This document shows positions 10,170 through 61,285 of a stretch of 64,000 nt of DNA, one piece after another (within the stretch, counting starts at the first letter, position 1; the number at the start of each line of letters is the position of its first letter). A program made the position numbers and the translations under genes. The notes below the pieces were generated by a model that was given only the letters and a program-made list of their open reading frames with translations, ran no database searches and was not told the origin of the DNA. Origin of the DNA: a virus; IMG/VR virus record IMGVR_UViG_3300045988_118866, positions 74,950 through 138,949 of that record; one strand, 5' to 3'.

Positions 10170-10390
10170 TGTGGATTTACTGGAAAGAGCAATGTAATTA
10201 TTGTTCTAATTATGAAAATTGTTCTTATTATAATAAAGCCCAAGAATTAATTTCTAAATTAGATAATATAGATAGACATACTACTGGTGTTTATGGAACA
10301 TTAAAATGGGCTTGTGATTATTTTATTGTAGATAAAGATAAATATTATAGATTAAATCCTGGAGAGTGTTATAATGGAATTAACTCGTAA
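10169..10390 (+). CDS. Cys-rich small hypothetical protein
   Basis: 73 aa with several Cys residues (CNYCSNYENC). Overlapping start and stop with neighbours. Confidence 0.45.
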   Translation: MWIYWKEQCNYCSNYENCSYYNKAQELISKLDNIDRHTTGVYGTLKWACDYFIVDKDKYYRLNPGECYNGINS

Positions 10391-11567: not shown

Positions 11568-11570
11568 TAA

Positions 11571-12215
11571 ATGAAAAAAATATTATCAATAGATTTTGAT
11601 ATTATAATGTCTCCTTGTATTCAACTTTACAATAATTATTCAACTGATGATTGGGAAGCATTATGTTCTCATTTTGAAATTTTAAAATTTGCTAAACCTG
11701 ATTATATCCATTTTAAAAGGCTTTTACAACTTTTATTAAAATTAAGTAAAAGTATGAAAAAAGAAAATATTCATTTTATTGTTTCACATGAAATGATTGC
11801 TACTTATGTTGATAAGAATATAGATGATACTATATCTTTAATTAATATAGATCATCATCATGATATTGCTTACACCGATAAAGACATTGAAAATAAAATT
11901 GAAGATTTAAATTGTGGAAATTGGGTAAAATATCTATCTGAAAAAGGCAAATTAGAAAATTATGTTTGGATTAGAAATGAAGATTCAACTAATTATCCAG
12001 AAGATAGAAAATTTAATTTTTCGTCTACTCCTATTATAGAGTGTAATTTAGGAACGATTGATACTCCTGATGAACTATTTATTTGTTTATCACCTCAATG
12101 GATTCCACCTCATTTAAGATGTCTTTTTTATATTATTGTAGATATATTTAATAGTATTTATGATACTGAATTTAAAGTTCAAGGAGACGAAGAAGATAAT
12201 GGTAAATACATCTAA
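11571..12215 (+). CDS. hypothetical protein
   Basis: 214-aa intact ORF. No confident family assignment. Confidence 0.5.
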   Translation: MKKILSIDFDIIMSPCIQLYNNYSTDDWEALCSHFEILKFAKPDYIHFKRLLQLLLKLSKSMKKENIHFIVSHEMIATYVDKNIDDTISLINIDHHHDIAYTDKDIENKIEDLNCGNWVKYLSEKGKLENYVWIRNEDSTNYPEDRKFNFSSTPIIECNLGTIDTPDELFICLSPQWIPPHLRCLFYIIVDIFNSIYDTEFKVQGDEEDNGKYI

Positions 12216-12462
12216 TTTAAATTCAAGTATTAATGCTATACTTGAAAATAATATGTTTCTTAAGGACGCGGATTTAGCTTAGGATTTAAATTCTAATTTA
12301 GAACTTTTTACCCATGACTTAAATGTAGAATTAGATACGTTAAATTCTATGGTTCGTGATAATATGCATAAGATATCATCTCGGTCAAGAGAATTTGCTG
12401 ATTTTTTAAAAGATATTCGTAGTATATGCGATAATTATATCTCTCGATTTGATTATTATTAA
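12199..12462 (+). CDS. small hypothetical protein (one in-frame TAG)
   Basis: ATG at 12199 (RBS aaggaga 11 nt upstream), in-frame TAG at 12280-12282, TAA at 12460. Not in the ORF track because of the TAG. Confidence 0.35.
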
Positions 12463-12516
12463 ATAATATGATATTATATAAATATAAATTAAAATAAAAG
12501 GAGGGTCGGAGTTAGA

Positions 12517-15500: not shown

Positions 15501-16507
15501 AGCCAGGTAAACAAGCTATGATTTCTCTTATTAAAGGCGGAGCTTTTGATAATATGATGGATAGAAAAGAATTAATGATTTGGTATATTTGGGAAACTTG
15601 CGATAAAAAGAAAAGAATTACTCTTCAAAATATGGGCGGACTTATGAAGTATGATCTTCTTCCAGAAGAAAATGAAAATCAAATTATGGCTCGCCGCATT
15701 TATGAATTTAATAGATATTTAAAAGCAATTTGTAAAACTACAAAAAATAACGGTCTATATCAACTTGATGAACGAGCTATTAATTTCTTAGTAGAAATTG
15801 GAGAAGATAATAATATTCAATTTGATGGAACTAATTATTCTTTAAGTGAAAATATTTGGAATGGTATATACCAAAAGTGGATGGATATATTTCGCACTTG
15901 GATTGCTAATAACAAAGATGAAATTTTGAATAATCTAAATATAAAAATATTTAAAGATGATTGGGATAAATACGCTAATAAAAATAATTTATCCGCTTGG
16001 GAAATGGAAGTTCTTTGTTATTATTATCATACTCATGAATTGAACAATATTAACAATGATAAATATGGATTTGTAGATTTTTTTAAGCTTCCAGAAGATC
16101 CAATAATTGACAGAAGTTTTACCAAAGGAAATCATACTATTCATATTTATAAGTTATTTAAAATTTGCGGAACTTGTATTGCTAAAAATAAAACTAAAAG
16201 CACTGTAACCATTCTTACTACTACTGGTCCTGTAGAAGTAAAGTTTAGAAAAGAATATTTTAGTTTATTTGATAAACAAATTTCAGAGCGCGGAGCGGAC
16301 GGAACTAAACATATTGTTGAAAAATCTTGGTTTAATCGCGGAAATATGATTGTAGTCTCTGGAATTCGTAATGGAGATAATTTCATGTCAAAAAAATATG
16401 CTTCTTCTGGAGGACATCAATTATATAAAATTGATGAAATTTTATCCAATGGCGATTTAGTTTTAAAAGATGCTCGTTATCAAGGAGGAATTGAAGAAGA
16501 TGTATAA
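12517..16507 (+). CDS. dnaE: DnaE-type DNA polymerase III alpha subunit (PHP domain + pol core); N-terminus requires a +1 frame change at 12571-12577
   Basis: ATG at 12517 follows RBS aaaggaggg and encodes the PHP start MRSYFNCHSHTMYSNLRLL, then hits TGA. The +1 frame continues as DCINRPTALIDKAIELGLSGIAITDHECLSAHMEV..., matching the PHP consensus (HxH...YS.LDG...ITDH). The core carries LPDIDIDLAP (palm aspartates). No in-frame TAG anywhere in about 1330 codons. Confidence 0.8.
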
Positions 16508-17066
16508 AATTATTGCATTATGTGGAAAATCTGGTGCAGGAAAAGATAGCCTAATGATGGCTACCTTTTCCCACTTAGAGGAATATTTAAATCCTATTAT
16601 AAGCCACACTACGCGTCCGAAGCGTGAAAAAGAAATAGCAGACAAAAATTATCATTTTGTTTCAGATGATCAGTTTTTAACTTTAATTGATGAAAATAAA
16701 ATGTTAGAAACTACTTCTTTTAATAATTGGTATTATGGCACAAGTATTGATAGTTTGTCTGATAGTAAAGTTAATATTGGTGTTTTTAATCCTGAAGGAA
16801 TTATAAGTCTTCTTAAAGATAATCGAATTGAATTAGAAATATATTATATCACTGCGAAAGGAAAAACTCGCTTAATTAGGCAATTAAACAGAGAAGAAAA
16901 TCCTGATGTAGATGAAATTATTAGAAGATATACTGCTGATGAAATTCAATTTCAGCTAATGAATGATATTAAATGCAATATTGTAACAAATGAAACATTA
17001 GAAGATTATAATAATATTGTTAATCTTTTAACTCAAAAAGTTAAACAATGGGCGGAAATGGACTAA
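16500..17066 (+). CDS. guanylate kinase family nucleotide monophosphate kinase
   Basis: P-loop CGKSGAGKDS and the SHTTRPKREKE...YHFV motif characteristic of the guanylate kinase family. ATG at 16500 overlaps the polymerase stop. Confidence 0.7.
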   Translation: MYKIIALCGKSGAGKDSLMMATFSHLEEYLNPIISHTTRPKREKEIADKNYHFVSDDQFLTLIDENKMLETTSFNNWYYGTSIDSLSDSKVNIGVFNPEGIISLLKDNRIELEIYYITAKGKTRLIRQLNREENPDVDEIIRRYTADEIQFQLMNDIKCNIVTNETLEDYNNIVNLLTQKVKQWAEMD

Positions 17067-17152
17067 GATAAATAATTATTTACTAACAAAATCTAAATAT
17101 AGTAGAATATTCTAAAAGAACTACTATATTTAGTTTGGAGGCAAAAAAATTG

Positions 17153-19405
17153 TATATTATTAAACGTGATGGAAGTATAACTCAATTTAATAAAAAGAAA
17201 ATTATTAACGCAATAAATAAAGCATTTATTGAAGTTGATGGTAAACTATATGAAGATGATACTGCGAAAGATATCGCGGAAGACATTGAAAGACAAATAA
17301 ATCATTTCCCTGATGGAAGTGTTGGAGTAGAAGATCTTCAAGATTGGATTGAAGATTATTTAATGCGTTCTGAGCGACGTGATGTTGCTCGTGCTTATAT
17401 CAGATATAGATATAAAAAAGAAGTTGCTCGTAATAAAAAAGATGATTTTATTAAAGCAATTCGTGAAAAGCTCGATGGTAATAATGTAAAAAATCAAAAT
17501 GCTAATGTTGATGAACATTCATTCGGCGGCCGCATAGGTGAAGCAAGTAGTGTTGTCACCAAACAACTTGCACTTGATTACTTACTTTCCCCTATGGCTC
17601 GTAAGAATCATGTTGATAATATGATATATACTCACGATCTTGATTCTTATTATGTCGGCTCTCATAACTGTTTAAGTATTCCTTTTGATAATTTGCTTGC
17701 TAATGGATTTAATACTCGTCAAGCAGATGTTCGTCCTGCGGGTTCAATTAATACAGCATTTCAATTAATTGCTGTTATTTTTCAAATCCAAAGTCTTTGT
17801 TAGTTTGGTGGAGTTAGTGCTACTCACTTAGATTGGACTATGGTTCCTTATGTAAGAAAATCTTTCTTTAAACATTTCAATGATGGCATTGAATTTTTAT
17901 ATGAAGGATTAGATATGAGTAAATATGATGGTTGTTATAGTAAAGAAACTCCTATTGATGATGATTTTTATAAATCATTTCCAAAAGCATATAAATATGC
18001 TATGAAAATGACCACTCGTGAAACTCATCAAGCTGCAGAAGGCCTTTATCATAATCTTAATACTCTACAATCTCGTAGCGGCAACCAATTACCATTTACA
18101 AGCATTAACTATGGCACTTGCACCAAACTTGAAGGTAGAATGGTAACTAAAGCATTATTAGATGTTTCTATCGAAGGTCTCGGTAAACTACATAAAACTT
18201 CAATTTTTCCTTGTGGAATTTTCCAATGTATGAAAGGTGTTAACCGCAAATCAGGTGATCCTAACTATGATTTATATAGATTAGCATTAGAAAGCACCGC
18301 GAGACGCCTTTATCCTAATTACGCAAATGTTGATTGGTCTGGTAATGCGGGATATGATATTAATGATCCTCGCACTTATTTTTCTACAATGGGATGCAGA
18401 ACCGCAAACGGCTGGGATATCAATGGATTCGGTCAGCTTAAAGATGGACGTGGAAATATTTGTCCAGTTACTATTATTCTTCCAACTCTTGCGATGATGG
18501 CCGTTACTCTAAATGAAAATGATAATTGGGATGACTATAAGTCATTATCCCAAGAAGAACGAACTAAAATTGGTGTAGAACGATTTATGTCTTTACTCGA
18601 TAGAAAAATCAATGAAGCACGTATTCAATTAATGGAACGTTTTGAATGGATTTGCTCTCAAGATCCTGGATCCGCGAGGTTTATGTATGAAAATAATGTT
18701 ATGGCAGGTTATGTTCCAGAAGAAGGAATTCGTTCCGCTCTTAAACACGGAACTCTTGCTATTGGTCAGTTAGGTTTGGCTGAAACTCTTCAAATTCTTA
18801 TTGGTAAAGACCACACCACTTCAGAAGGAATGGAATTAGCTAAACGAATTGAACAATTATTTAAAGAAAGATGCGCTGAATACAAAGAAAAATATAAATT
18901 AAATTTTGGAGTTTATTATACGCCCGCAGAAAATCTTTGTTATACAGCTATGACGAAATTTAAAGAAAGATACGGCGAAATTCCTAATGTTAGTGATAAA
19001 GAGTTTTTTACCAATAGTATTCACGTTCCCGTATGGAAAGAAATGAGTCCATTTGAAAAAATTGATATCGAATCTGAGTTAACTGGTTATTCATCCGCAG
19101 GATGTATCACTTACGTCGAACTTGATTCTACTGTAAAACATAATATTGATGCTCTTGAAACTATCGTCAATTATGCGATGGATCACGATATTCCTTATTT
19201 CGCAGTAAATGTTCCTAATGATACTTGCCTTGAATGTGGTTATTGTGATGAATTTAATGATTCCTGTCCTGTATGTGGAAGTCATAATATTCAGCAATTA
19301 CGTCGCGTGACTGGTTATCTTACTGGTAATTATAAAACTGCTTTTAACTGGGGTAAACAAAAAGAAGTTGAAGCAAGAGTAAAACATACGGGAGTATTAG
19401 AATGA
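17153..19405 (+). CDS. nrdD: anaerobic ribonucleoside-triphosphate reductase NrdD (one in-frame TAG)
   Basis: ATP-cone N-terminus (L)YIIKRDGSITQFNKKKIINAI. The ORF-track pieces 17135 and 17840 share a frame and are joined by the TAG at 17801-17803. C-terminal Cys cluster CLECGYC...CPVCG and glycyl-radical motif RRVTGYL. Likely TTG start at 17153, 11 nt after GGAGG. Confidence 0.9.
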
Positions 19406-19854
19406 AATACGCGGGAATTATAAAGAATGATTTGGCTGCGGCGCCCGGGGTGTGTGTATCATTTTTTACACAAGGGTGTCCGCACCGCTGTGAAGGATGC
19501 CAAAATCCTGAAACGTGGGATTTTGATGGTGGTAAAGAATTTACTAATAAAGTATTAGATGAATTAATTACCGCTATTAGCGCAAATAATATTGAACGTA
19601 ATCTTTGTATTATGGGTGGAGAGCCTCTTTGCCCTGAGAATGAGTTTTTAACTAATTTAATTATTACTGAAATCAAAAAAGTATATCCAAATATTAAAAT
19701 ATATGTGTGGACTGGATATGTTTATGATGATTTAAAGAATAGCAATAATATTAGAATTAAAAATATATTAAAAACCGCCGATTACCTAATTGATGGACCA
19801 TATATCCAAAAGGAAAGAGATATCACTTTACCTTTACGCGGTTCCCGCAATTAG
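19402..19854 (+). CDS. nrdG: anaerobic RNR activating protein NrdG (radical SAM)
   Basis: CPHRCEGCQNPETW carries the radical-SAM CxxxCxxC motif. Small size and position immediately after nrdD. Confidence 0.85.
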   Translation: MKYAGIIKNDLAAAPGVCVSFFTQGCPHRCEGCQNPETWDFDGGKEFTNKVLDELITAISANNIERNLCIMGGEPLCPENEFLTNLIITEIKKVYPNIKIYVWTGYVYDDLKNSNNIRIKNILKTADYLIDGPYIQKERDITLPLRGSRN

Positions 19855-22555: not shown

Positions 22556-22608
22556 AAAAAAATAAGGGAATGAAACAAAAATAGTTTCATTCCCTTATTT
22601 TTTTTATC
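22556..22608. terminator. bidirectional rho-independent terminator at convergence of early (+) and cargo/late (-) transcription
   Basis: Hairpin aagggaatgaaac-aaaaatag-gtttcattccctt, with an A-run upstream and a T-run downstream. Confidence 0.7.
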
Positions 22609-22907
22609 TATTTAAATAAAAGATTAGTATTATTTATAATTTCTTCACCATAAGTTCCCACCAAATCCGCAATCAATTCTTCTTCTTCTGGTTTTAATGA
22701 AATATCATAGCTAAAAATAGCAGCATGAGTTAATTCATGCGCTAATACTTTTTTTAATTTTTTATTACTAATATTTTCATTAATATAAATTGTTGAAGTG
22801 GGATCATCGCAAGAACCTAAAGTATATATTCCAGAAGGTCGCATTAACATAGGATGATTGGAAGATACTAATAGTATCCTCCAATTCCTATTATTAATAT
22901 TAACCAT
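22608..22907 (-). CDS. ImmA/IrrE-like zinc metallopeptidase (HExxH)
   Basis: LKKVLAHELTHAAIF contains HELTH. The short peptidase domain is typical of ImmA-like antirepressors. TGA immediately upstream in frame. Confidence 0.55.
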   Translation of the reverse strand: MVNINNRNWRILLVSSNHPMLMRPSGIYTLGSCDDPTSTIYINENISNKKLKKVLAHELTHAAIFSYDISLKPEEEELIADLVGTYGEEIINNTNLLFK

Positions 22908-23445
22908 TCATAGATCCAATTTTAGATGCTAAAGCCTAGATTTTCTTCTCCATATAAGAACGTTCATCATTAGAAGCATCTTCAATCATTTCTACTATAT
23001 CAGAACTTAATTCTTGAAGATATTTATCTAACTCTTTTATCTAAACACTCTTATCTTTATGAAGTTCTTTGGCTTCTATGTACATCTTTCTGTGGACGCC
23101 ACTACGGCCTTCTCTGCTATCATGGGTTTCACGAGATTTTCCATTTGTAGGCATCTCATATTCATGCTCATCATAATCATAATCTTCCCAATCATAATCA
23201 TATGTCATAGGTTTATAGATTCTTTTTTTATGAGGAGATTTATATTTTTCAGTATAATAATGTGTGGTTTTAGGTAAATCATTCATAGCTTCAGTAATAG
23301 TACAATAATAAATAGCCTCTTCAAGGTCTTTTATCATATCTATTACTTCGCCCATTTCCTTTGTATCAACACATTCTAAATGAGCCATTTGGCTTTCTAC
23401 TTGAGTTAATAATTGTTTTTTAATTTCTTGGAATTTATCACACAT
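22900..23445 (-). CDS. hypothetical acidic protein (two in-frame TAG)
   Basis: ATG at 23445 follows RBS aaggagg. The frame continues through the TAG at 23041 and another at 22936 to a TAA at 22900. Confidence 0.5.
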
Positions 23446-23458
23446 TTAAAAAACCTCC

Positions 23459-23881
23459 TTATGCCACTCTCTCGATAATTAAACTGGCGTTTTCAACATC
23501 AATAGCCTATGAACTCGTGTTTTCAATACTAATTTGAGTGCAACAACCGCCTAACACATCAAGGAATAAAGCACGTGAAACATTATTAAACTGTCCAGTA
23601 GCCGTAGGAGTAGAAATCATTGTAGAAGTAGTAACTGGCTCTCCATTAATAGCTATAGCCAAAGAAATAGCACCCGCAGTTCCAGTAGTTGGAAGTCCTA
23701 TATTACCTCCAAATGAAATGCGGAAACGAGCTCTGCGTTGACCGTTCGTAAGACCGCGGAGGGTAACTAAACCGCTACCCTCGCGATACATTATGGAACA
23801 GTTTCCAGCAACAGCTGTGTTAGTGAATACTACATTAGAACCAGTAGCAACTGATTGTAAAGCATTAGCCGTTATTTCCAT
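23459..23881 (-). CDS. BclA C-terminal domain-like (C1q/TNF-like) protein
   Basis: Read-through of the TAG at 23507 gives a C-terminus ...LAIAINGEPVTT...ASLIIERVA. This closely parallels the end of the Bacillus exosporium BclA C-terminal domain (...LTIQVNGVPV...ASIIIEKVA). No collagen-like repeats are present. Confidence 0.55.
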
Positions 23882-23902
23882 AATTTAACCTTCTTTCTTC
23901 AA

Positions 23903-24784
23903 TCAGGAATTGCAACCGCATCCTGAACCATATCCACATCCATAGCTAGTATAACTAACACCGGTATAAGGATTAGCAACAATATAAGCGGGAGTTGCTT
24001 TTGGAGACAACTGATCAATAAGATAAGCATTTTGAAGATTTTGAGAAATCTAATTTTTAAGAGTGCTATTTTCACTGGTAAGAGTCTCAATTTTATCTTG
24101 AACAAGGAAGTCAAGAATAGAACGCATATTAGCATTATTGTTGTCAATAATATCACGGACACCATCAACGGTAGCCTGACGATTCTGGCAAGCAATACTA
24201 GCAAGATTGTAATTAAGATCAGCAAAACTAGATTGAATTAACTATTTATTCTCGCAGCAGCATTGAGCATTAGTAGCTGCCATATTACTTAATTGCTGAG
24301 TTAAATTATTAGTATTCTGCATACTTGCTACAGTATCAGCATTAATAGCCTGAGTGATACTAAAAGTATTCTGCATATTATTCATACCCATATTACAGAT
24401 ATCACTCTGTAAAGTGCGAGTATTAGCATTATTAGTTTCAGCAAGATTAGCAAAACCACTTAAAAGATTAGTGTTTACTCCACTAAAACCATTGCAAAGA
24501 CTAGAAGCTAAGCCATTAACCCCAGATTTAAGATCGCTCATGTTAAAACCATAACCGATTTCTTCTCGAGTTGTAGTGCCTTGGAAACCAGAACCATTAG
24601 CACCATTATTACCCCAGCCATTACCGCCCCAACCATTGAAGCAGAATAAGAACAGGATAATAATCCACCATGCTCCGTCTCCCCACATTCCGCCATCATT
24701 ATTACGATAGCCATTTCCAGAAGCCGCAGCAATATCAGATAATGAATAATTCGGCGTGCTCATTGGATAATTGTAATTAAACAT
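23903..24784 (-). CDS. Gly/Asn/Cys-rich protein with one TM segment (exosporium/coat-like or membrane cargo protein)
   Basis: ATG at 24784 follows RBS aagagg. Reads through TAGs at 24242 and 24050 to a TGA at 23903. Hydrophobic AWWIIILFLFCF, repetitive GWGGNGWGNNGANGSG, CCCENK, and a C-terminal GCGYGSGCGCNS. Confidence 0.45.
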
Positions 24785-24810
24785 AACAAAACCTCTTTCT
24801 ATAATTTTAT

Positions 24811-25059
24811 TTATTTAAACCCCATTTGGGACTTAAAACTATTAAACTCTTTATCGAAATTTAAACCTCTTGATTCAAACAAATTACGAGCAAATTTTTC
24901 AATGTCATCGGATTGACCGTTCCGTGCCATTTGTAATAAATTATTGCCCATTGGCGTTCCGCCCATTTGATTTTCAAGCATAGATAAAACTAATTGCTAT
25001 GGATTTTGACCGTTTTTAATCATAGCAATAATTTGCATTGGATTCATTGATTGTGTCAT
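24811..25059 (-). CDS. small hypothetical protein (one in-frame TAG)
   Basis: ATG at 25059 follows RBS aaggagag. 82 aa, MTQSMNPMQIIAMIKNGQNPQQLV... Confidence 0.45.
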
Positions 25060-25071
25060 TTGAAACTCTCC

Positions 25072-25521
25072 TTAAAAATTAAACTGCGGTTTGCTCTCTG
25101 TTGGTTGCTATTGAGCTGGCTAACCCGATTCCTAAGACGGCGCAACCGCGTTATTGGATCCCATGATCTATGCAAATACTTCTTTAATAGAAGTTAAGGT
25201 AGTATTAAATTCTTCTCGTGTTATATAGTCATTATTAGGCTAAGAAGAATTTGGGATTTCTTTTAATTCATACATATTAATAGAAGCTGTTCCATCCATA
25301 TTTATTTGTTTTGTATAAATTCTACGATTAGCATAGTCAGGAAAATAAAAAACTGAACCATCAAAATCTATATTCATAGCTCGAACCTCTTCTAAAGAAG
25401 CAACGGGTCTAATTCGCTATGCAGTATTGTTTTGAATCACAGGTGTAGCAGTTGTTCCATAAATAGGTCTATTATTACCTATTGGATACTACTGCTATGG
25501 ATAACCATAAGTATTCATGTT
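25072..25521 (-). CDS. Gln-rich hypothetical protein (many in-frame TAG in Q-rich runs)
   Basis: ATG at 25521 follows RBS ggaggtaat. TAG codons are interleaved with CAG/CAA, giving PQQQYP and PSQESGQPAQQQPT. Confidence 0.5.
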
Positions 25522-25602
25522 ATTACCTCCGGAGAAATATAATAATGAAAGGTTTTATCTTTTCCTTTCATTATTATATGACTTTTATTTTGTGTAAATA
25601 TA

Positions 25603-25630
25603 TTATAATTACTGACACTTTTTGGATAAA
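25603..25630 (-). promoter_or_regulatory. candidate promoter for the minus-strand cargo cassette (TTTATC-16-TATAAT on minus strand)
   Basis: Read on the minus strand: TTTATCcaaaaagtgtcagtaatTATAAT. It lies upstream of the RBS of gene 25072..25521, after a hairpin at 25545-25573. Confidence 0.3.
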
Positions 25631-25680
25631 AATTTCACTTACTTAAAATTAAATAAATTTGACACTTTATAATTTTTTAT

Positions 25681-25709
25681 TTTACAATATTTAAAAATTT
25701 TTGTATAAT
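25681..25709 (+). promoter_or_regulatory. promoter of the LytTR regulator gene (TTTACA-17-TGTATAAT)
   Basis: Extended -10 TGTATAAT at 25702-25709. There is also a TTGACA at 25659-25664. Confidence 0.45.
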
Positions 25710-25761
25710 TATAATATAGAAAGAATATAAAGATAGAAAAATTTTTTCTAAAATAAACAAA

Positions 25762-26478
25762 ATGAAGGTGATTAAAATTTTTATCGTAGGTGTTTGCGAC
25801 AATAGCGATTAGCAAAATGACTCATTGGAAGAAATAATAAATCAGTATTTTAAAGAATTTAATTTGCCGGGATATGTATATAAATTTACTGATCCTAGAA
25901 AATTAATTGATTCTAATATTGATTATGATGCAATCTTTTTAGGGATTACATTCAAAAAAATGGATGGTATTGAAATAGCTCATCTCTTAAGAACAAATGG
26001 GTATATTGGAAAAATAATTTTTGTTTCCTCTCAAATAAATTATGGAGTAGCTTCTTATGAAGTAAAGGCATTTAACTTCGTCAAAAAACCTGCTAATAAA
26101 GAAAAAATTTTTTCTATTTTACATGAAGTTAGAGAAGAAAAAAGACGTGAATATAAATATTTAGACACTCCTAATGGAGAAGTAAAAATTGATTTGGGTA
26201 AAGTATTATATGCTGATATCCAAAAACGAAATTTGTGTTGCCATTTAGAAAATGAGGTTCTAAATAGTAAAACTTTAAAAACTTCTTTTGAAAATTATAT
26301 AGGAACTTTAGTTTATCATCCAGATTTTGTCTTTATCCCACCAAGTTTAATTATTAATTTAAATCAAATTAAAATAATGAATAAAGACAATTTAACTTTC
26401 AAAAATGGTGAAGTTTTATGCTTTCCTAAAAAAGGCTATGAGGAAATTAATCGACGATGGAAAAATCCATTTAGATAA
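25762..26478 (+). CDS. LytTR-family transcriptional regulator with degenerate (pseudo-)receiver domain
   Basis: ATG at 25762 is in frame with ORF 25825..26478 through the TAG at 25810. N-terminus MKVIKIFIVGVCDNSD... is receiver-like, but the phospho-acceptor position reads FLGI instead of FLDI. The C-terminal LytTR DNA-binding domain reads VKIDLGKVLYADIQKRNLCCHLENE...FIPPSLIINLNQI. Confidence 0.7.
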
Positions 26479-26480
26479 AA

Positions 26481-26525
26481 AAAATAAGGGAGACATTCAG
26501 TTAAGAATGTCTCCCTTATTTTTAT
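26481..26525. terminator. bidirectional terminator (aagggagacattc-agttaa-gaatgtctccctt) between LytTR gene and minus-strand holin-like gene
   Basis: Perfect 13-bp stem flanked by A-run and T-run. Confidence 0.65.
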
Positions 26526-26932
26526 TGTTTTAAATCATCACTTGGAGTACGATAATTATTTACTGTAGACTCGATCTTCTCTTGTAAATATTTATTCAAA
26601 TCACCAAAAGCATTATTCAAATACTCTTTAGCATCATCACTTAAAATGAGCAATACTGCTTGATAAGTTCTCTAAAATGCTTCTTTTTGAGCAGCTTCAT
26701 CAAACTTACCTTGTTCTTTAAGAGAATTTACATAAGTTTGATTGGTGGCAATAACACAATTAGTAATTGTGTCAGTAGCCATTTGCACATATTTATTTAA
26801 AATATCATTATTAGTTTTCTTTTGTAATTCTGCACTTTTTGCTTTAATCCAAATAACTATAAAAGTGGTTAAAGCACCAAGCATAGGAATCAAACATACT
26901 TGGAATAATTGATTAATTAAATTTTGATCCAT
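26522..26932 (-). CDS. small membrane protein, holin-like candidate (one in-frame TAG)
   Basis: ATG at 26932 follows RBS aaaggagat. TM helix LFQVCLIPMLGALTTFIVIWI. Reads through the TAG at 26672 to a TAA at 26522. Confidence 0.4.
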
Positions 26933-30629: not shown

Positions 30630-33600
30630 TCACTTTACAATAGGTTCTTCTTCAAAGTTTGCTCTATTAGATATCATTGCTTCATAAATTCTATGTAAAG
30701 TATTCTTAACACTTTCACCATAACTAGCAACATAATAATATCTAAAACGACCTGTATATCCATTAGCGACAGTAGGCATACCTGTTTGACGAGGGGTAAA
30801 AATATTACCAGAACTATCTGCCGTAATCTATTTAATTGGATGCTTATTAGTGCCAATCTATACTTGAATAGCACCAGTATAACCCTTAAACTAATTACCA
30901 GACATATTTAAAATTGTCTAACCAGAGAACGCATTTACATCAAAGTTAAGAATACCATCTTTACATCCCTCTATAATTAAATTATAAGGAGAATAAGACC
31001 CCATCTTACTTTGATAGAATGCTTGAGCTCCAAAAGTCAAACCTTCCGTAGAAGAAGAATAAGGAATTATATTATTACGGCTTAAAGGACATTGATAAAA
31101 TGCCTTAATGCCAATTTTCTTTAAACAATCACTGAACTAAAAATATTCCAATCCACTATCTAAAGTAAAAGCATAATCATCTATTACAGAAATTTTGTTA
31201 TTGTCTTTTGGAGCAAAAAATACTGCTGTAATATTAGGATTTACTTGAATACCCACTGCCGCAGATGGATTAACTTGACTGTATCTAATTCTTGTAATTG
31301 GCTAGCCGTTATAAATTGTAGGTAAAGTGATTTTACCTTTTAAATTCTTAGCTAAATCAGTCATTACAAATGATAATTCTCCGTCAGAATTTATAATATC
31401 ATAATATTTATGAGTAGAATCATTAATTAAGATATTGTCATAAACACTAACTGGTTCTCCAACAGCATAGAATTCGCGGTCGGCATAAGCTAACTATCTT
31501 GTTAAATCAATTTTAACTCCATCTTTATCAGCCCATCCAGTCTGTTTCCAAGTCCATTCTAAAGAATTTTCTCCATTTGGCAAATCTGTCACTTCTGTAT
31601 TATTAAAATAATAAAATTCATCTGGAACAGTAATTCTTTCACCATAATTAAATACTTTCTTTACGGTTGAATCATTGACGACGCGGTCGCCATTAACAAA
31701 AGTAATTGTATAAGATTTACGTTCAAATCTTGCTTTAAAGATATAATCTATTTTATTAGACTGTAAGGATAAAGAACCCCAATTATCTTTTAAAACCGCA
31801 TCTTTTTCATTTACATCTTTTCCAACTGTAATTACCAATTCACCAGTATCATCTTCCCAACCTTTAAAATTATAGGTTGGCATTTTTTCTTGTAAGCTAC
31901 CAAAAGAAATATAAGTTTCGCTTGAAGAATCCGTAGGATTGTCAAAAAACTTAGAGCTTGATAAAGGTAATTTCTAAGTCTTTAAAATTTCTTGAGTTAA
32001 TACTCCATCTGCGTCTTCTTGTTCGAGAACAAATTTAGCAGAATATTCTTTCTTAACATTTTTCATAAAAATAGTTAGATTAGGATAAATACTCTATAAT
32101 TCCTCTTGAATTACGTGTTCTTCTATTTCTTGAGTATTTTCAATGTAAATAATGCCAGTTATATTAGGATAAGTCTAATTAATACCTTTAAAGTTAGTCG
32201 GGGCTCCATTATACAAATTACGTAATAAAGTATAATCAATAATTTTACTATGAATATCATTATATCCATTTACATTATTATCATAATAATAAATTAAATT
32301 ATTTTTTATTTCACTCGGAGTAATTTTACTTACATCTTCTGCGTTAATTTTTTCTAGTTGGAAATGCCCGTTATCTTTATAATACTTAATATTAATACTA
32401 TCTAATTCCACTTTATCATCATTTAATAATCTATAAGGACTCCATTGGACATTAGTTAAATTAACTTCGCATCCAGTTAAATTACTCTTTTCACAACCAA
32501 GATAATAACGTCTTAATAGTTCATAAGAATAATAATCTAAATTACCACCGCGAATATCAAAAGTTTTTATACTCGTTGTAATAACGTTATCTTCAACATC
32601 AGTTAAATTTTTAATATACAATCCTTTATTTTCTTCCGCAACTTCAAGACGATTAGTGATAGGATTAACTGTAGGATATACATATTTAGTAACTAATTTA
32701 GTCAAAAGATTCGCTTCTATTAAACTTAAATAATTCGTATAATCAGTTAAATACAAAGTATTTAAAGCAACGCCTTCAGCGAACTAAACTTTAGTGACAT
32801 TAGAACCAGTATTTCTAAAGTTTTCTAATTTTTCACTTTTAGTTAAGTCTAAAGCTACTGGATTTAAGAATCTAATATTACAAAGATTCATTTCTTTTAA
32901 TAATGGCATACCTTCACTGGGATAACTCCAATTGTTTACGTCATTGTTTTTATATTCTTTTCCTTCTTCAGAAAGACCATCATATCCTAATAACAAATCT
33001 ACTAATTTATTAGCCTTACCTCTAATAAATAATTCTTGGAAATATAATTTACTTAAATCTCCAAGAGATTTCATCTATTCTAAGCCATAAATATAATATA
33101 ATTGTTCACGGTAATTACCACTTGACATAATACCTTTCTTTAAATCTGGAGCAGTAAATCTAACAGGAGTTAAACCATCATATTTCTAAGATGGGAAATT
33201 TGCTCCATCAGTTCCAACAGTAACATAAGAACGACGGGCAGGCTCCATCTTAATCCAATATTCACCATCAAACATATGATTTTTAGTACCAAATTCTTTT
33301 CCATTTTTCCAATATTGAGAATTAGTTATTAAATTAGTTAAGCCTTGATTATTAGTTCCTTCAATCCATTCATCAGATGTAGTATTTGGATTATTAGCAG
33401 AAATACGGCTTATGATATTATTACTACCACTATCTCCAGAATATTCATCAACCGTTAACCAAGAGTCAATATAATTAAGACGGTTGGTTAAAAACTGCGA
33501 ACGATAAAGATTGCGGTCGCCCTATAAAGCATAGAAATACTAATCACTTTCTATTTCGTATTGGCCACCATTAGTAATACGACCAAAAATAGTATCTTTT

Positions 33601-36600
33601 GCTGCTGAATTAGTCGGAATAATATATTTATATTCTTCATCTAAATCTAAAGCGATGATAGGACGCTCTCCCTATACAGCATAACTACCTGGGAATAAAG
33701 AAGGATCTGTTTTATACCATTTATCAACAACATCACTTTTTTTAGAAGAAGTACCAGATTCTTTCTTAAAAATTTGTTTTACTTGGCTCTAATCATAAGA
33801 TCCATTTGGCTTACCCATTAATTGTTTATACTTATCAATAATTTTACTCTTAAAGAAAGTATAGAAGTTATTCCATAATACACTATCGTTAGTAGAATAG
33901 CTACCATCTTCAGTAGCATCAACATAATATTCAAATGATGGAATACCAGTATTGTTAATACCTAATTGAGTATCAATATCATAAAAAATAGGATACCAAA
34001 TATAATGCTGAATTCCAGTAACTTTTTCAACATTTCCTTTTTGCGGTCCCCAAGAAGCAAACATCGCATTTTTACCACGAGAGTCATAACATTCAAAAAT
34101 TTCAGTCATTAAAAAATAAGTTGCTAAATACTCAATATTAAAATAATTACTTAATTCATTTTTGAATTTGGCTTGACGATATTCTTTACTATCTTTTGTA
34201 TAAGTAACTGAATTATAAGTTACTGGTGTAGATAATAACCATTTATCATCAATTTGATTTTCATCTTCAATAAAAGAATAATAAGTGGTATAAGGATTAT
34301 ATTTTTCAGAATCTAGAACATAAATTTTATTATCCTAATCCTATAAAATATAATATTTATTTATCTAATAAATTTTATTATCATCATCAGTTAATTTAAT
34401 TATGCTATAAACTTTACTGTCTTTATTATAAACATAATACTTTTCTTCTGAATCAAATTTTTCTGTAGCAATTTTATAAGTTTCGCTACCGCTTTCATCA
34501 ACTTTATCAAATAAATAATATTTATTTGGTTCATATTTAGCTTCGGCTAAATCTATTTCTTCATACTTACCCATTGAAGGAATTTCATATAAAGTTCCAT
34601 CAAAATCAATACTACAATCTAAACAAGTGCTCCAAACCCAACTTACGGCATCCTCCCAATTTGACATTAACGCAAGAAGTAATTCACGAGAAGTATTTCT
34701 ATTTTTCATATCGAATATAACAGGATCTTGTCCTGGATTTGTGATAGTCCACTATTTATGTTTAGTTCCTGTAGTTTCATCGACAATTGTTTCTGATTTT
34801 AATCTACTTGGAACTGTATTATTTATTCCATCAGTAAATTCAATTATTTTATCTGTATCTGTAGCTTCCGCAGAAACACAGTTAAATAATTTATCTGCGA
34901 TTAAATCATCATTAGAATTATATCTAACTTCAAAAGAATCGGCAACCATTGGAGCTCCACCAGAAGTTAAATAGCCTGTTGAATTATTATCATCCATTAA
35001 CGGAGGTCTAAAAGATAATTTATATCTATTCCAAGGATCACGGAAAGAACAATACGTTCTTGAATTATTCTAAAATTCCCAACATTCGGTGATATCTCTT
35101 ACCCTTGGAGTTCCTTCAATCTAATTCTATAAAACTTTTTTGTTAGGTTTAAACCCATAACATTCGTCGGAGCCTTTATCCAATAACATATTATATTTTC
35201 CAATATAAATGATATCATTTTCGCTATATTCATTATCATCAGTAGAAGGCCAATGGAAAGCTAAAACAGGGTATCCCTTTACAGAAGTTCTATAATCATC
35301 AATATCTCCATACAAGTCATATTTATCAAAAGAATTTTGATAATCTTCCACTGGATGCTTAGAATAAGTTTCATTAACTAAATTGGCGAATCCTCTATTA
35401 TAATCTCCAGAAGATTCCATGAAGTCAATCTTTAAAGTAAATTTAGTAGTGCCAACAGTATTGTTATCCATGTAAAAGAATTCAAGATAACTTTTACTTT
35501 TTGTATTTAGACTATCATTAGCTTCTTCTTCTTTATAAATAGATTCAAAAGGTCCTCTATTCATAAACATAGCTTCTTTACATTTAGCTTTGTAATTACG
35601 TCTTGGATAATTACGTGAAGAAGTTCCCTAAACCTAAAATGTTGCTCCGTCAAAAAGAGTGATAAAGCTAGGACAATGATGTAAATAATAATTCTATACC
35701 GCAGTATAAATTACTTCATTAGTCTTACTATCTACAACCGGTTTCCAACCTTCTTTTTCAACTATCTTATCAAGCTCACCTTTAGCATAAGCAGTATCTA
35801 ATGGAACATTTACGAATTCCATAGTTCCCTTTTGAGCACCATTATCTTTAGAGTAGGGAAGTCTATTATCCGTACTTTCACTATTGTTTTTAGTAGTCTT
35901 TAAAATAATATATGGCATTAATGGTTTATCAGTGTGTCCAATATTATAATCAAGCATTTTACGATAAGAAAATACATAATCGTTTAAAATAGTATTATAA
36001 TCATACAAATCTTTCTAGTCCCATTGATTAATGTCTTTTTTATCAAAAGCATAATTCTAAACTACATCAGGAATAGTTAAACTAGCATCATAAACTCTAA
36101 TACTATAAATATCAATATCACAAGTATTAGACATAAATTTAATAACATCAGAGTCAACTGTCCAAGCAGAACTACCAGAACGACGAGCTACGCTTGTTAA
36201 TACTCCATTTAAGAAAATTTCTAATAACTTAGAATCTCCACCAGTATGACTAGATTTAGAGCTTGTATAAACAAATGTTAAATATAACATTTCATCTTCT
36301 ACAAAATCGACTGAGACGGTTTCTTCATCACCGTTAGCAGTAAATGTAGCATCTTGTGGGCTAAAATAAATACCCAAAGGACTTTTTAAAGATCCATAAG
36401 CACAAACAAGATTATTTAAATTGAAATCTTGAGCTAAACCATTATAAGTCAATTCATCATAACTTGGAGCTTCTGGATGTTCTGGTAAATATTTTTTTGT
36501 TAAAAATTCATCATAATTAACATAAGTAGTCTAATCTTTAAATGCATTCCAAGCATCTTTATCAGTCCAAGACTTTCCAGATTCATCGCTTGCTTTATAA

Positions 36601-38324
36601 CGAGTATATTTAGTAATTACTTTAGAATAATTTTGTGGGTTTCTAATTTTAAATTGAATTTCAATACTGTGTGTAGGAGTGGAAGAACTATTATCAAAAG
36701 ACAATTGTCCAATAGGAATAGAAACTTCAGCACCATTACTAACTCTTAAACAAGTAGTATTGTTATCATCAAAAACCCAACCATTATTATACCAGTTAAA
36801 GTTTTTAAATTTTGCGTATTTACCATTAATTTCTAATGTTTCACGACTTAATTTGCTCTCAGAATTAGAACGTCCAGTAGCAACGAAATTAACTTTTAAA
36901 TCATTACTTCTAGCTAATTCCATATTCCTTAATGGGTCTATTTTAATTATAAAAGTAAAATTACGAGAATAATCATATGGCTCAGTTCCTACTTTAATTG
37001 TATAATAAGAACTGTCATTAACAGAAAGATTAGTAATTTCCCAGTATTGCCATACAGTCTAATCAGCAATTTCACGAGTACTTAATAAAACACCATTTTT
37101 ATATAAGCTAACTTTTGCGGTCGTCACATTAGGATCATATACTCTGAAAGGAATTTTAATAGTTTCATAAGTGTAATATTCTGTTTTAAAATCACCAGTC
37201 CAGATCAAAGGAGTTTTACTACTTCTATCTAAAATAACAATTTCTTTTTCAATAAAATCAGTACCATTTCCTTTTTCACCACTGTTAACTAAATAAAGTT
37301 TAGCCTTAATAGTATGTTCTCCATGAAGAAAATAGTTTGCTAAAGTCATTGTAGAATCATTATTATTATTTAAAATAACAGTATTTTTTGTTATAGTAAT
37401 ACTATCTTCATTTCTGGTATTGGTGCTACTATACTCTTTATCTAAAATTAAATAATTATCAAAATAAACTTCAATAGCACTATTTACTTTATCAGACATT
37501 AGCCAAGTAACATTAATTTGGCCATTATCAAAAGGTAAATCATTATTAAATTTGCTTTCTTGCCATTGAAGAGTTAATTCATGTGTAGTTACGAATTGAG
37601 TCTTTTTAGTAGTAGAAAAATGATTATTAGTGGGATCACTATTCTTACTAACAATAAACTCAATTTCATGTGTAGAAGAATTTCTTAAATAAGCAGAAAT
37701 ATCAGTAGTAATTGGTTTATTATGTTGATAAGTTTTTGCTTCACTATAAATATCTTCCCAAGAACCATCACTCTTTTTCTATCTAATAGTTAAAATACCT
37801 TCGACAGAATCAAGAACTGGTTCTCCATTTATTGTTCTACATTTTACGAGTGCGGTTACGCTTACTGATTCACCATTAAGTACATCAGTAGGACCGTCTA
37901 AGGTTAAGGAAACAGTACCATTTACCTTAACTTCTTGATCCTGGTTTCCGCCACCTGCTAATAATTTTTCACAACTTGCGACTTCTTCTTTATCATCATT
38001 TAATTTAAATTCTTTAATGCGATAAAATGCTCCATCGCTATTTAAAATCAAATCATTTACATGAGGATTAGAACTTGATAAATTAGATAAACGAATTGAA
38101 TATCCGATTGGATTCTCATCCGCATCATAATCAATTCCGACGTCTTTTTCAGTTCCATAAATTACCTAAACGCCACTTGAGCCTATTGGTATTTTATTTT
38201 CAGTCGCAGTATCTAAATAAACTCGTCCGGTATCTGTTGCCACATAAAAATATCCATCAGTTTGTGGATATGCTTTTATCTTTTCTTCTGGACCCTAAAC
38301 GGGACGAAAATGTATTTTAGACAT
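30630..38324 (-). CDS. giant tail fibre/adhesin-like structural protein, about 2564 codons
   Basis: ATG at 38324, 8 nt after RBS aaaggagta. I scanned this frame codon by codon on the minus strand and found no TAA or TGA until the TGA at 30630. Fourteen ORF-track pieces (37779..38051 down to 31494..31883) all lie in this one frame, separated only by TAG. Confidence 0.55.
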
Positions 38325-52322: not shown

Positions 52323-52362
52323 AAGGGTGAAGCCTATAAGACCTCACCCTTAATTTTATTTT
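52323..52362. terminator. hairpin agggtga-agcctataagacc-tcaccct with flanking A/T runs after tape measure gene
   Basis: 7-8 bp GC stem followed by TAATTTTATTTT. Confidence 0.5.
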
Positions 52363-52448
52363 CTATTGGCATACTGAGAAGCTACATTAACTAATGTATT
52401 AAATGCTTCTTGAATTTCGTATCTATCAGTAGCGTTCGGGAAACTAGC

Positions 52449-61225: not shown

Positions 61226-61285
61226 AATTAGCCTCCTTTTACTCTTTATTATATTATACAAAAAATTTTTTATTTAGTCAATTTT

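What the first reader, a model, noticed from the sequence alone, without database searches (positions are those of the whole stretch)
25659..26525. Plus-strand LytTR regulator with non-phosphorylatable receiver, embedded in the minus-strand late region and insulated by terminators
This is the only plus-strand gene between 22.6 and 64 kb. It has its own -35/extended -10 promoter and a bidirectional terminator at its 3' end, which also stops the convergent holin-like gene. The receiver-like domain has FLGI where the phospho-acceptor FLDI should be, so it is predicted to act without a cognate kinase. LytTR regulators control quorum, bacteriocin and virulence regulons in Firmicutes. A phage copy placed between lysis-like and tail genes could be a late-gene activator or a host-regulon hijacker.
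Basis: partly seen in the sequence, partly recalled or inferred. Interest (0 to 1): 0.6.

Follow-up and report, generated by a model that had tools for sequence, protein, structure and literature searches.

The report
Amber-gated kinase-less LytTR regulator in phage
A large gut-type phage that reads the stop codon TAG as glutamine carries a DNA-binding regulator that has lost its phosphorylation site, and an in-frame TAG kept near the start of the gene in every relative suggests it is made only after the phage switches the genetic code.

Summary
It is the lone plus-strand gene in the late region. It has a receiver plus LytTR architecture, with Gly (FLGI) where the phospho-acceptor Asp should be. 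A conserved sigma-A-type promoter precedes it, and a bidirectional hairpin terminator is shared with a convergent holin gene.

In the standard code the ORF starts at a non-conserved TTG (25825) and lacks strand beta1. The true frame opens at 25762/25777 and carries an in-frame TAG at 25810-25812.

Syntenic orthologues exist in seven phage lineages that are only 28-85% identical. All seven keep a TAG within a five-column stretch at the start of helix alpha1, although the exact codon shifts and homologues tolerate any residue there. Several lineages also lack a canonical start codon after the ribosome-binding site (probable AUU/AUA start).

Best reading: an orphan, phosphorylation-independent LytTR transcription factor whose amount is set by amber suppression. 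Its possible site is a set of CACTT direct repeats found only upstream of itself.

It is probably accessory: two relatives lack it through deletions and one has a frameshift. No repeats occur before late operons, so a late-activator role is unsupported. No suppressor tRNA was found in about 100 kb examined.

The parts
25616..25667 (+). Three same-orientation CACTT-core boxes: 25616-25620, 25636-25640 and 25663-25667. Boxes 1 and 3 are the exact 9-mer TGACACTTT. Spacing is 20 bp and 27 bp. They are a candidate operator lying between the regulator's promoter and the divergent minus-strand operon.
   Evidence: The exact TGACACTTT occurs only at these two places in 64 kb. CACTT pairs with 18-23 or 24-30 bp start-to-start spacing occur nowhere else in the window. 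The CACTT cores are invariant in L001 (68% identical protein, spacing 21) and L019. Box 1 is also recognisable in L025. Binding by the regulator is inferred, not shown.
25681..25709 (+). Sigma-70/sigma-A-type promoter TTTACA-17-TATAAT. An overlapping weaker candidate, TTGACA-18-TACAAT at 25659-25688, is not conserved.
   Evidence: It matches 11 of 12 consensus positions. The block TTTTGTATAAT and the -35 element are conserved across the window clade, L019 and L001. L025 and L028 have equivalent promoters with a true TGn extended -10.
25764..25779 (+). Ribosome-binding site GAAGGTGA (25764-25771), followed 8 nt after the GG core by ATT (25777-25779), the probable non-AUG start. The in-frame ATG at 25762 has no ribosome-binding site upstream.
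   Evidence: The site and the ATT are invariant in all relatives. The ATG becomes TTG in L019 and TGG in L001. L025 has no ATG, GTG or TTG between the upstream stops and the TAG, only AAAGGAGG followed by ATA/ATT. Starting at ATT gives the same N-terminal length as the orthologues L029 and L031, which have a normal site plus ATG. The start codon is inferred.
25762..26478 (+). Coding frame of the receiver plus LytTR regulator: 238 aa from ATG 25762, or 233 aa from ATT 25777. Receiver roughly aa 1-125, LytTR roughly aa 136-232. Gly61 (GGG 25942-25944) replaces the acceptor Asp.
   Evidence: PHROG 8810 matches the full length at E=2.7e-24. There are 12,887 homologues at E<=1e-3.
25810..25812 (+). 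In-frame TAG (codon 17 from ATG, codon 12 from ATT), read as Gln. It lies at the N-terminus of helix alpha1, after strand beta1 and the acidic loop.
   Evidence: It is present in all intact close relatives and in L001 and L019. A TAG falls within alignment columns 17-21 in all 7 lineages. TAG swaps with CAA/CAG in relatives, for example INqYF in L015 and L022 against INQYF elsewhere, and Gln is the dominant substitution partner.
26480..26523 (.). Bidirectional intrinsic terminator. Stem arms are 26486-26498 and 26505-26517, the loop is AGTTAA, an A-run lies upstream and a T-run downstream. It follows the regulator's stop codon (26476-26478) and abuts the holin stop codon (26522-26524).
   Evidence: It is called as a terminator on both strands. 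RNAalifold on 7 lineages gives 18 pairs, 6 of them with compensatory double changes.
26522..26932 (-). Convergent holin gene (136 aa, one in-frame TAG).
   Evidence: phrog_13712 holin, E=7.4e-38. It is syntenic in all lineages.
22587..25518 (-). Divergent block of six small genes of unknown function (148, 82, 293, 140, 181 and 106 aa). It shares the 243-bp intergenic region with the regulator, and parts of it are deleted together with the regulator in two relatives.
   Evidence: Gene models under TAG=Gln come. PHROG hits are to families of unknown function, plus a weak metalloprotease match. The deletions in L018 (window 23189-25822) and L024 (24705-26323) are mapped.

Best explanation
The gene encodes an orphan, aspartate-less response-regulator-like transcription factor: a receiver domain followed by a LytTR DNA-binding domain. 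It is a long-standing resident of one fixed locus in a family of roughly 190-kb phages that read TAG as glutamine and probably infect Clostridia-type Firmicutes.

Gly replaces the phospho-acceptor Asp, and only one acidic pocket residue remains. The protein therefore cannot take the usual input from a histidine kinase (shown from sequence). Its DNA-binding half is the better-conserved half (shown).

Its activity is most likely set by how much protein is made (inferred). Three features would control this:
- A host-type sigma-A promoter transcribes the gene.
- Translation starts at a weak or non-AUG codon in several lineages.
- Translation must pass a TAG 12-17 codons in. Full-length protein therefore appears only once amber suppression is active in the infected cell.

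In this model the phage's code switch, rather than a kinase, is the input.

The most likely DNA target is the set of CACTT direct repeats in its own upstream region, which it shares with a divergent block of small late genes (inferred, weak). The gene behaves as an accessory cassette rather than an essential late activator.
For: Recoding of the phage:
- Reading TAG as sense turns the fragmented minus strand into ORFs of 2564, 2737 and 1149 aa. Recoding TGA does not.
- Gln is the dominant substitution partner of TAG.
- The relative phAss-1 is a published TAG->Gln phage.

Identity of the protein:
- Pfam REC scores 35.1 bits.
- LytTR matches 6 of 7 orthologues.
- ComE 4cbv and LytTR domain 3d6w are the top structural matches.
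- NCBIfam's best, weak hits are LytR, BtsR and AgrA.

Loss of the Asp:
- FLGI aligns to FLD in solved receivers.
- Of the 142 sequences aligned (window protein plus closest homologues), 126 have Asp and 5 have Gly. All five Gly copies are this protein and its phage orthologues.
- Orthologues that keep the Asp have lost the acidic pocket instead: CSGN in L029, and only one acid (YGDN) in L031.

Fixed locus: the synteny NrdD - NrdG - dUTPase - minus-strand block - regulator(+) - holin(-) holds in L001, L006, L025, L028 and L029. L031 holds only the regulator-proximal part.

The early TAG:
- All 7 of 7 lineages have it in columns 17-21, at three different columns.
- Random placement of the TAGs gives p=1.5e-6.
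- The empirical retention rates of TAGs in neighbouring genes multiply to about 8e-4.
- The next-best neighbouring genes reach 6/7 and 5/7, and most reach 3 or fewer.
- The column is variable in homologues (L, I, E, D, A and others), so an amino-acid constraint does not explain it.
- The downstream TTG is not conserved.

Start codon.

Repeats.

Dispensability.
Against: - No suppressor tRNA, or any tRNA or Rfam family, was found in the window plus about 37 kb of flanks from relatives. The timing and source of suppression are therefore unknown.
- Conservation of the TAG could partly reflect shared descent. Two neighbouring genes also keep a TAG in 5-6 of 7 lineages.
- First TAGs show no general 5' bias in the window's genes. 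A general gating rule is therefore not evident.
- The CACTT boxes are short. Spacing is 20/21 bp for one pair but 27 bp for the other. They are only partly recognisable in the deeper lineages L025, L028, L029 and L031. Box 3 overlaps a -35-like hexamer.
- The structure model is poor overall (pLDDT 54.5, receiver below 50).
- The window copy's own LytTR score is below Pfam's cut-off.
- The C-terminal domain alone finds nothing in the PDB by sequence.
Confidence: 0.5

Rival explanations
1. The TAG is just another glutamine codon. The regulator sits in a recoded late module and its early TAG persists by descent and drift. The protein is an ordinary Asp-less LytTR factor with no link to the code switch.
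For: TAG=Gln is used throughout the late region. Two neighbouring genes keep a TAG in 5-6 of 7 lineages. First TAGs show no general 5' enrichment.
Against: The TAG is kept in 7 of 7 lineages at 28-45% protein identity, while its exact column moves between 17, 20 and 21. In four lineages it is the only TAG in the gene, and the column tolerates any residue in homologues. Empirical retention rates predict about 8e-4 for this pattern.
Confidence: 0.3
2. Late-gene activator: the protein switches on the minus-strand structural and lysis operons.
For: It lies inside the late region next to the holin gene. Synthesis tied to amber suppression would suit a factor that licenses TAG-rich late messages (inference).
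Against: No paired CACTT motif, or other repeat shared with its own upstream region, precedes any late operon in the window or in the flanks from relatives. A late gene carries a consensus TTGACT-17-TATAAT promoter that needs no activator. The gene is deleted in two relatives and frameshifted in one.
Confidence: 0.12
3. Host-regulon hijacker or decoy. The protein binds host LytTR boxes, or pairs through its receiver with a host LytTR regulator, and so alters quorum, bacteriocin or murein-hydrolase programmes without needing the host kinase.
For: The cassette has moron-like architecture: its own sigma-A promoter, its own terminator, opposite orientation, and it is dispensable. Its receiver is closest to LytR/MrkE-type receivers.
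Against: The host is unidentified. The nearest bacterial homologues are only 24-30% identical (Lachnospiraceae, Clostridium), so there is no sign of mimicry of one particular host regulator. An early TAG would block expression in an uninfected or lysogenic standard-code cell. No host sites were tested.
Confidence: 0.2
4. Decaying pseudogene: a captured host regulator that has been inactivated by a stop codon and by loss of its Asp.
For: It has an in-frame stop in the standard code and a degenerate receiver, and some relatives carry deletions or a frameshift.
Against: The frame is open under TAG=Gln in seven lineages down to 28% identity. The LytTR half is well conserved, and the promoter, ribosome-binding site and terminator are all conserved with compensatory changes.
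Confidence: 0.03

Closest known systems
LytR/AlgR-family (LytTR) response regulators such as AgrA, ComE, LytR and BtsR
   Same: Two-domain layout of receiver plus LytTR. Full-length ComE is the best structural match. The receiver profile is closest to the 6m8o and 2qv0 LytTR-type receivers. The conserved Ser/Thr (S89/S90) and Lys-Pro (K109-P110) are kept. Same-orientation repeats about 20-21 bp apart lie upstream of its own promoter, as in autoregulated agr and com loci (that comparison rests on my own knowledge of those systems).
   Different: The acceptor Asp is Gly, and the DD pocket is reduced to D-N. No kinase gene is adjacent. The protein is phage-encoded, and its scores are far below any NCBIfam equivalog cut-off. 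Translation needs a recoded TAG.
Aspartate-less or pseudo-receiver response regulators (the ALR/PsR class, for example RitR and ChxR)
   Same: Domain software recognises a receiver fold that lacks the phosphorylatable Asp, so the protein is expected to act without phosphorylation (PMC4395418, PMC12632262).
   Different: A term search for LytTR, LytR and phage in the main text of both papers found no occurrence of any of the three. Here different orthologues have lost different catalytic residues: the Asp in some, the acidic pocket in others.
Stop-codon recoding as a post-transcriptional timer in code-15 phages (Borges et al. preprint 10.1101/2021.08.26.457843; phAss-1, PMC10607447)
   Same: TAG=Gln is concentrated in structural and lysis genes, and many replication genes in the window contain no in-frame TAG. 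The proposed logic, that in-frame stops hold back proteins until suppression is on, is the logic invoked here.
   Different: The published model concerns lysis genes, structural genes and integrases. The term 'response regulator' does not occur in the preprint. Here a single amber codon near the 5' end, kept across lineages while its position turns over, sits in a transcription factor. phAss-1 has no detectable homologue of the regulator.
Phage 'moron' cassettes
   Same: The cassette has its own promoter and its own terminator, is oriented against the surrounding operons, and can be lost.
   Different: It is kept at the same locus across very deep divergence (28% identity), which is unusual for a casual cargo gene.

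Membership tests
LytR/AlgR (LytTR) response regulators | N-terminal receiver (CheY-like) domain | tested here: met
   Pfam PF00072 scores 35.1 bits against a cut-off of 30.2. All 7 orthologues match. The family profile hits solved receivers down to E=2.8e-15.
LytR/AlgR (LytTR) response regulators | C-terminal LytTR DNA-binding domain | tested here: met
   The window copy scores 16.9 bits, below the 22.6 cut-off. However, 6 of 7 orthologues match, best E=2.8e-5. Foldseek gives ComE 4cbv at E=2.4e-8 and LytTR domain 3d6w at TM 0.68, rmsd 3.3 A over 108 columns. The model's pLDDT is 60-90 in this domain.
LytR/AlgR (LytTR) response regulators | Phospho-acceptor Asp at the end of strand beta3 | tested here: not met
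   Gly61 (FLGI) aligns with the Asp of 6m8o and 2qv0 and with position 58 of ComE. Among the 142 sequences aligned (window protein plus closest homologues), 126 have Asp at this column.
LytR/AlgR (LytTR) response regulators | Acidic pair (DD/ED) after strand beta1, and the conserved Thr/Ser and Lys | tested here: inconclusive
   The pocket is D13-N14, so one acid is lost. S89/S90 and K109-P110 are retained.
LytR/AlgR (LytTR) response regulators | A partner histidine kinase encoded nearby | tested here: not met
   No kinase-like ORF is visible among the window's gene models, and the syntenic neighbours in relatives show none among their precomputed Pfam hits. Only the proteins were scanned against family libraries. 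About 95 kb of the genome was not examined.
LytR/AlgR (LytTR) response regulators | Binding to paired direct repeats of about 9 bp with a spacer of about 12 bp | not testable with these tools
   Candidate CACTT boxes lie 20-21 bp apart, upstream of the gene's own promoter and nowhere else. Binding has not been measured.
Aspartate-less / pseudo-receiver domains | A domain recognised as a receiver but lacking the catalytic Asp | tested here: met
Code-15 (TAG->Gln) recoded phages | Genes that are fragmented in the standard code become whole when TAG is read as sense | tested here: met
   Summed codons in open frames of at least 150 codons rise from 10,199 to 19,537 with TAG as sense. With TGA as sense the total is 10,808.
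Code-15 (TAG->Gln) recoded phages | TAG stands for glutamine | tested here: met
   Gln is the commonest partner of TAG in orthologue alignments, for example 22 of 35 changes against L019. Within this gene TAG swaps with Q at INQYF and at SSQINY.
Code-15 (TAG->Gln) recoded phages | A phage-encoded suppressor tRNA(CUA) | tested here: inconclusive
   None was found in about 100 kb. About half of the roughly 195-kb genome was not seen. The relative phAss-1 encodes tRNA-Sup-CTA.

The most novel reading that the evidence does not exclude
In this phage family a response regulator has swapped its input. Instead of sensing a kinase through its Asp, it 'senses' the phage's own genetic-code switch through a selectively maintained amber codon, and in some lineages a non-AUG start, at the very beginning of its mRNA. 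That would make it a transcription factor that reports 'suppression is now on' to a small accessory regulon next to the lysis gene.
Probability: 0.35. Interest if true: 0.75.

Novelty: new variant of a known kind. Interest (0 to 1): 0.55.

Why it matters
The idea that recoded stop codons act as timers in phage infection rests mostly on which gene classes carry them. Here one amber codon near the 5' end of a regulator is kept across orthologues that are only 28-45% identical, while its exact position turns over. That is the signature expected if the codon itself, and not the glutamine, is under selection.

This gives a compact, testable case: about 60 nt of 5' sequence fused to a reporter, with and without a suppressor tRNA. 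It also adds a phage-borne LytTR example to the poorly understood pseudo-receiver class, and shows different orthologues losing different catalytic residues.

There is also a practical point. Standard-code annotation truncates this gene and shatters the whole late region. At least one public 'Mollicutes MAG' contig appears to be this phage.

Tried and rejected
- Suppressor tRNA hunt. I ran ARAGORN on the window and on 58 loci, and Rfam on 126 kb. I walked three steps (about 37 kb) beyond the window ends in relatives. A three-sequence profile worked.\n- The table-11 start TTG 25825 is rejected. It is not conserved (TTA in L001 and L019), has no ribosome-binding site, and would remove strand beta1.\n- A leader-peptide or re-initiation model around the TAG is rejected. 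Downstream starts are not conserved, and the 'leader' is homologous to strand beta1 and the acidic loop of receivers.\n- TTGACA at 25659 is rejected as the main -35 element because it is not conserved in L001.\n- A general 5' bias of TAG codons is rejected: 9 observed against 8.45 expected.\n- Paired CACTT hits inside a giant tail gene in L077, L079 and L081, and one in L067, are judged coding or chance matches.\n- The structure model used only 2 sequences and is poor for the receiver, so I did not rely on it for that domain.
Full report
**1. What is in the sequence**

Under the standard bacterial code the finding's interval holds a 217-aa ORF, TTG 25825..26478. The raw sequence shows that the same frame continues upstream. 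It reads ATG(25762) AAG GTG ATT AAA ATT TTT ATC GTA GGT GTT TGC GAC AAT AGC GAT TAG(25810-25812) CAA AAT GAC TCA TTG.... Translated, this is MKVIKIFIVGVCDNSD-TAG-QNDSLEEIINQYF, which is the strand beta1 and acidic loop of a receiver domain interrupted by an amber codon.

The interruption is not a defect of this gene. The whole minus-strand late region is shattered in table 11. It becomes ORFs of 2564, 2737, 1149 and 963 aa when TAG is read as sense, whereas reading TGA as sense changes almost nothing.

In alignments with relatives, TAG exchanges above all with Gln codons. Within this gene, relatives L015 and L022 have TAG where others have Q (INQYF), and L025 has TAG where the window has Q (SSQINY). 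The window is therefore a TAG->Gln (code 15) phage.

Ribosome-binding sites of the GGAGG type precede most genes. The tail-tube-like protein is 40-51% identical to proteins of Enterococcus phage EF1 and of phAss-1. phAss-1 is a published TAG->Gln gut phage with a predicted Clostridia host. There is no near-identical GenBank phage. IMG/VR relatives lie on contigs of up to 197 kb, with one circularly permuted.

**2.

- With TAG as sense, this is the only credible plus-strand gene from 22.6 to 64 kb.
- FLGI is real, and its Gly occupies the acceptor-Asp column. A profile of the protein aligns YDAIFLGITF with YDIIFLDVNL (6m8o), VDAIFLDINI (2qv0) and the mutated position 58 of ComE.
- Among the 142 sequences aligned (window protein plus closest homologues), the column is Asp in 126 and Gly in 5. 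All five Gly copies are this protein and its phage orthologues.
- The acidic pair is reduced to D-N. The Ser/Thr and the Lys-Pro are kept.
- The C-terminal half is a LytTR domain. Pfam scores 16.9 bits in this copy, below the 22.6 cut-off, but 6 of 7 orthologues match, best E=2.8e-5. The better-predicted C-terminal part of an otherwise poor AlphaFold model retrieves full-length ComE and the LytTR domain 3d6w (TM 0.68) as top hits.
- The terminator at 26480-26523 is called on both strands and is kept in seven lineages with compensatory changes in 6 of 18 pairs.
- The convergent gene is a holin (phrog_13712, E=7e-38).
- Two promoter-like matches overlap. Only TTTACA-17-TATAAT (25681-25709) is conserved, and its TG sits one base off the extended -10 position.

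**3. Relatives**

The protein has few close relatives by word search. An exhaustive HMM search found 12,887 homologues. The best of these are encoded at the same position in related phages: after NrdD, NrdG and dUTPase, then a block of small minus-strand genes, then the regulator on the plus strand, then the holin.

Seven lineages can be distinguished (window clade, L019, L001, L025, L028, L029, L031), with 28-85% pairwise identity. The LytTR half carries most of the invariant columns. The receiver is degenerate in different ways. The acceptor is Gly in the window clade, L019, L001, L025 and L028. The Asp is kept in L029 and L031, but L029 has lost the acidic pocket (CSGN) and L031 keeps only one acid (YGDN). 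This is the pattern expected of a receiver that no longer has a kinase.

**4. The amber codon**

Every lineage has a TAG in alignment columns 17-21. It falls in column 17 in the window clade, L019, L001 and L031, in column 20 in L025 and L028, and in column 21 in L029. In four lineages it is the only TAG in the gene.

The corresponding column is freely variable in homologues (L, I, E, D, A, V, Q, K), so a need for glutamine does not explain it.

- Random placement of the observed TAG counts in five deep lineages reproduces the pattern 3 times in 2,000,000 trials.
- A control that allows for inheritance uses the measured retention of the window's TAGs (within 4 columns) in neighbouring orthologous genes. 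The rates are 0.53, 0.36, 0.48, 0.22, 0.20 and 0.19 for the six other lineages, and their product is about 8e-4.
- Among about 20 neighbouring gene families, the best are 6/7 (24811-25059) and 5/7 (the Gln-rich 25072-25518). Most reach 3 or fewer.
- First TAGs show no general 5' bias in the window's genes.

I conclude that an early TAG is probably maintained by selection in this gene. Shared descent cannot be fully excluded.

**5. The start codon**

The ATG at 25762 has no ribosome-binding site. It is TTG in L019 and TGG in L001. What is invariant is GAAGGTGA (25764-25771) followed by ATT (25777), 8 nt after the GG core. L025 has no ATG, GTG or TTG at all between the upstream stop codons and its TAG, only AAAGGAGG followed by ATT/ATC/ATA. 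L029 and L031 have an ordinary site plus ATG, and their N-termini have exactly the length obtained by starting the window protein at ATT.

A non-AUG start in several lineages is therefore likely (inferred). The TTG at 25825 chosen by table 11 is not conserved and would delete strand beta1.

**6. Possible DNA targets**

The 243-bp region upstream, shared with the divergent operon, holds three same-orientation CACTT boxes at 25616, 25636 and 25663. Two of them are the exact 9-mer TGACACTTT, which occurs nowhere else in 64 kb. Pairs of CACTT at either spacing occur only here in the window.

In 101 loci of related phage sequence, the 19-22-bp-spaced pair occurs only at this same upstream position in close relatives, L001 and L019. 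The exceptions are four hits elsewhere, three of them inside a giant tail gene, that I judge to be coding or chance matches. The cores are invariant in L001 and L019, and the first spacing is 20 or 21 bp. That is the LytTR-like geometry, a comparison that rests on my own knowledge of the AgrA and ComE sites. In deeper lineages only box 1 is recognisable.

No late-operon intergenic region has such repeats. Several of these regions hold hairpin-plus-T-run sequences, and one holds a consensus TTGACT-17-TATAAT promoter.

**7. Dispensability**

Among 18 close IMG/VR relatives, three have a damaged copy. L018 lacks window 23189-25822, which covers four divergent genes plus the regulator's promoter and first 20 codons. 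L024 lacks 24705-26323. L023 has a frameshift. The regulator and its divergent neighbours thus behave as an accessory module. This argues against an essential late-activator role.

**8. Mechanism proposed**

Shown:
- The protein is a receiver plus LytTR protein that lacks the acceptor Asp.
- It needs TAG read-through.
- Its promoter, ribosome-binding site, terminator and locus are conserved.
- It is dispensable.

Inferred:
- Activity is controlled by abundance.
- Abundance depends on amber suppression, and in some lineages on a weak start codon. The code switch therefore replaces the kinase as the input.
- The protein binds the CACTT repeats and regulates itself and/or the divergent small-gene block next to the holin.

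Open:
- Where the suppressor tRNA is and when it is expressed. None was found in about 100 kb.
- The identity of the host. The nearest bacterial homologues are Lachnospiraceae and Clostridium at 24-30% identity.
- Any host targets.

**9. Comparison with what is known**

The protein works like, and by domain content belongs to, the LytR/AlgR family, but it fails that family's defining phospho-acceptor test. It fits the aspartate-less or pseudo-receiver class (PMC4395418, PMC12632262). A term search for LytTR, LytR and phage in the main text of both papers found no occurrence.

The gating idea is that of Borges et al. for lysis genes, structural genes and integrases (10.1101/2021.08.26.457843). 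The term 'response regulator' does not occur in that preprint.

I rate this a new variant of known kinds, of moderate interest. The strongest new element is the evolutionary signature on a single amber codon.

Noticed in passing
window 22600-64000, minus strand: The whole late region is TAG->Gln recoded. For example, ORF 52356-60569 (2737 aa) has 72 in-frame TAGs and ORF 30630-38324 (2564 aa) has 34. Any first-stage finding in this window that relied on standard-code ORFs will have wrong gene boundaries.
   Followed up: yes
window 3194-4726, 6687-8435, 17150-19405 (+ strand): Some early or replication-side ORFs also need TAG read-through: 2, 6 and 1 in-frame TAGs respectively. The last one matches NrdD in relatives. 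The 1278-aa polymerase-like ORF and many other early genes have none. Recoding is therefore not strictly confined to late genes.
   Followed up: partly
window 24811-25059 (-): This 82-aa protein of unknown function keeps a TAG near codon 21 in 6 of 7 lineages. It is the second-best conserved amber position in the neighbourhood.
   Followed up: partly
window 25072-25518 (-): This 148-aa Gln-rich protein uses TAG for 8 of its 14 glutamine positions, several in runs such as PqQqYP. It is the first gene of the operon divergent from the regulator.
   Followed up: partly
window 25537-25579: A perfect 16-bp inverted repeat (ATATAATAATGAAAGG / CCTTTCATTATTATAT, 11-nt loop) lies just upstream of the ribosome-binding site of the divergent operon. 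A hairpin is kept at the same place in L001 with a different sequence. Its function is unknown; it could be a 5'-UTR structure or an attenuator.
   Followed up: no
window 61226-61285 (-): A consensus sigma-A-type promoter, TTGACT-17-TATAAT, is preceded by the same TTTTTTGTATAAT block as the regulator's promoter. It lies in front of a late-region gene (60692-61225).
   Followed up: no
L102 (CAMELE010000001.1, 163,874 bp): A contig deposited as an 'uncultured Mollicutes bacterium' MAG carries a 95% identical copy of the regulator. It is almost certainly this phage's genome that was mis-binned. L103, in a 'Clostridium sp.' MAG, carries a 45% identical copy.
   Followed up: partly
L018 (window 23189-25822 missing); L024 (window 24705-26323 missing): These are natural deletion variants. 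They remove the regulator's 5' end, or most of the gene, together with parts of the divergent small-gene block.
   Followed up: yes
window 1-64000 plus loci L032-L136: No tRNA gene and no Rfam family at the gathering threshold was found in about 100 kb of this phage family's genome. This is unusual for a recoded phage of about 190 kb. The tRNA array, if there is one, must lie in the unseen half.
   Followed up: partly
window 22587-22907 (-): A small 106-aa protein carries an HELTH zinc-metalloprotease-like motif (phrog_1233, with a weak match to the metalloprotease phrog_87). It sits at the far end of the divergent block.
   Followed up: no
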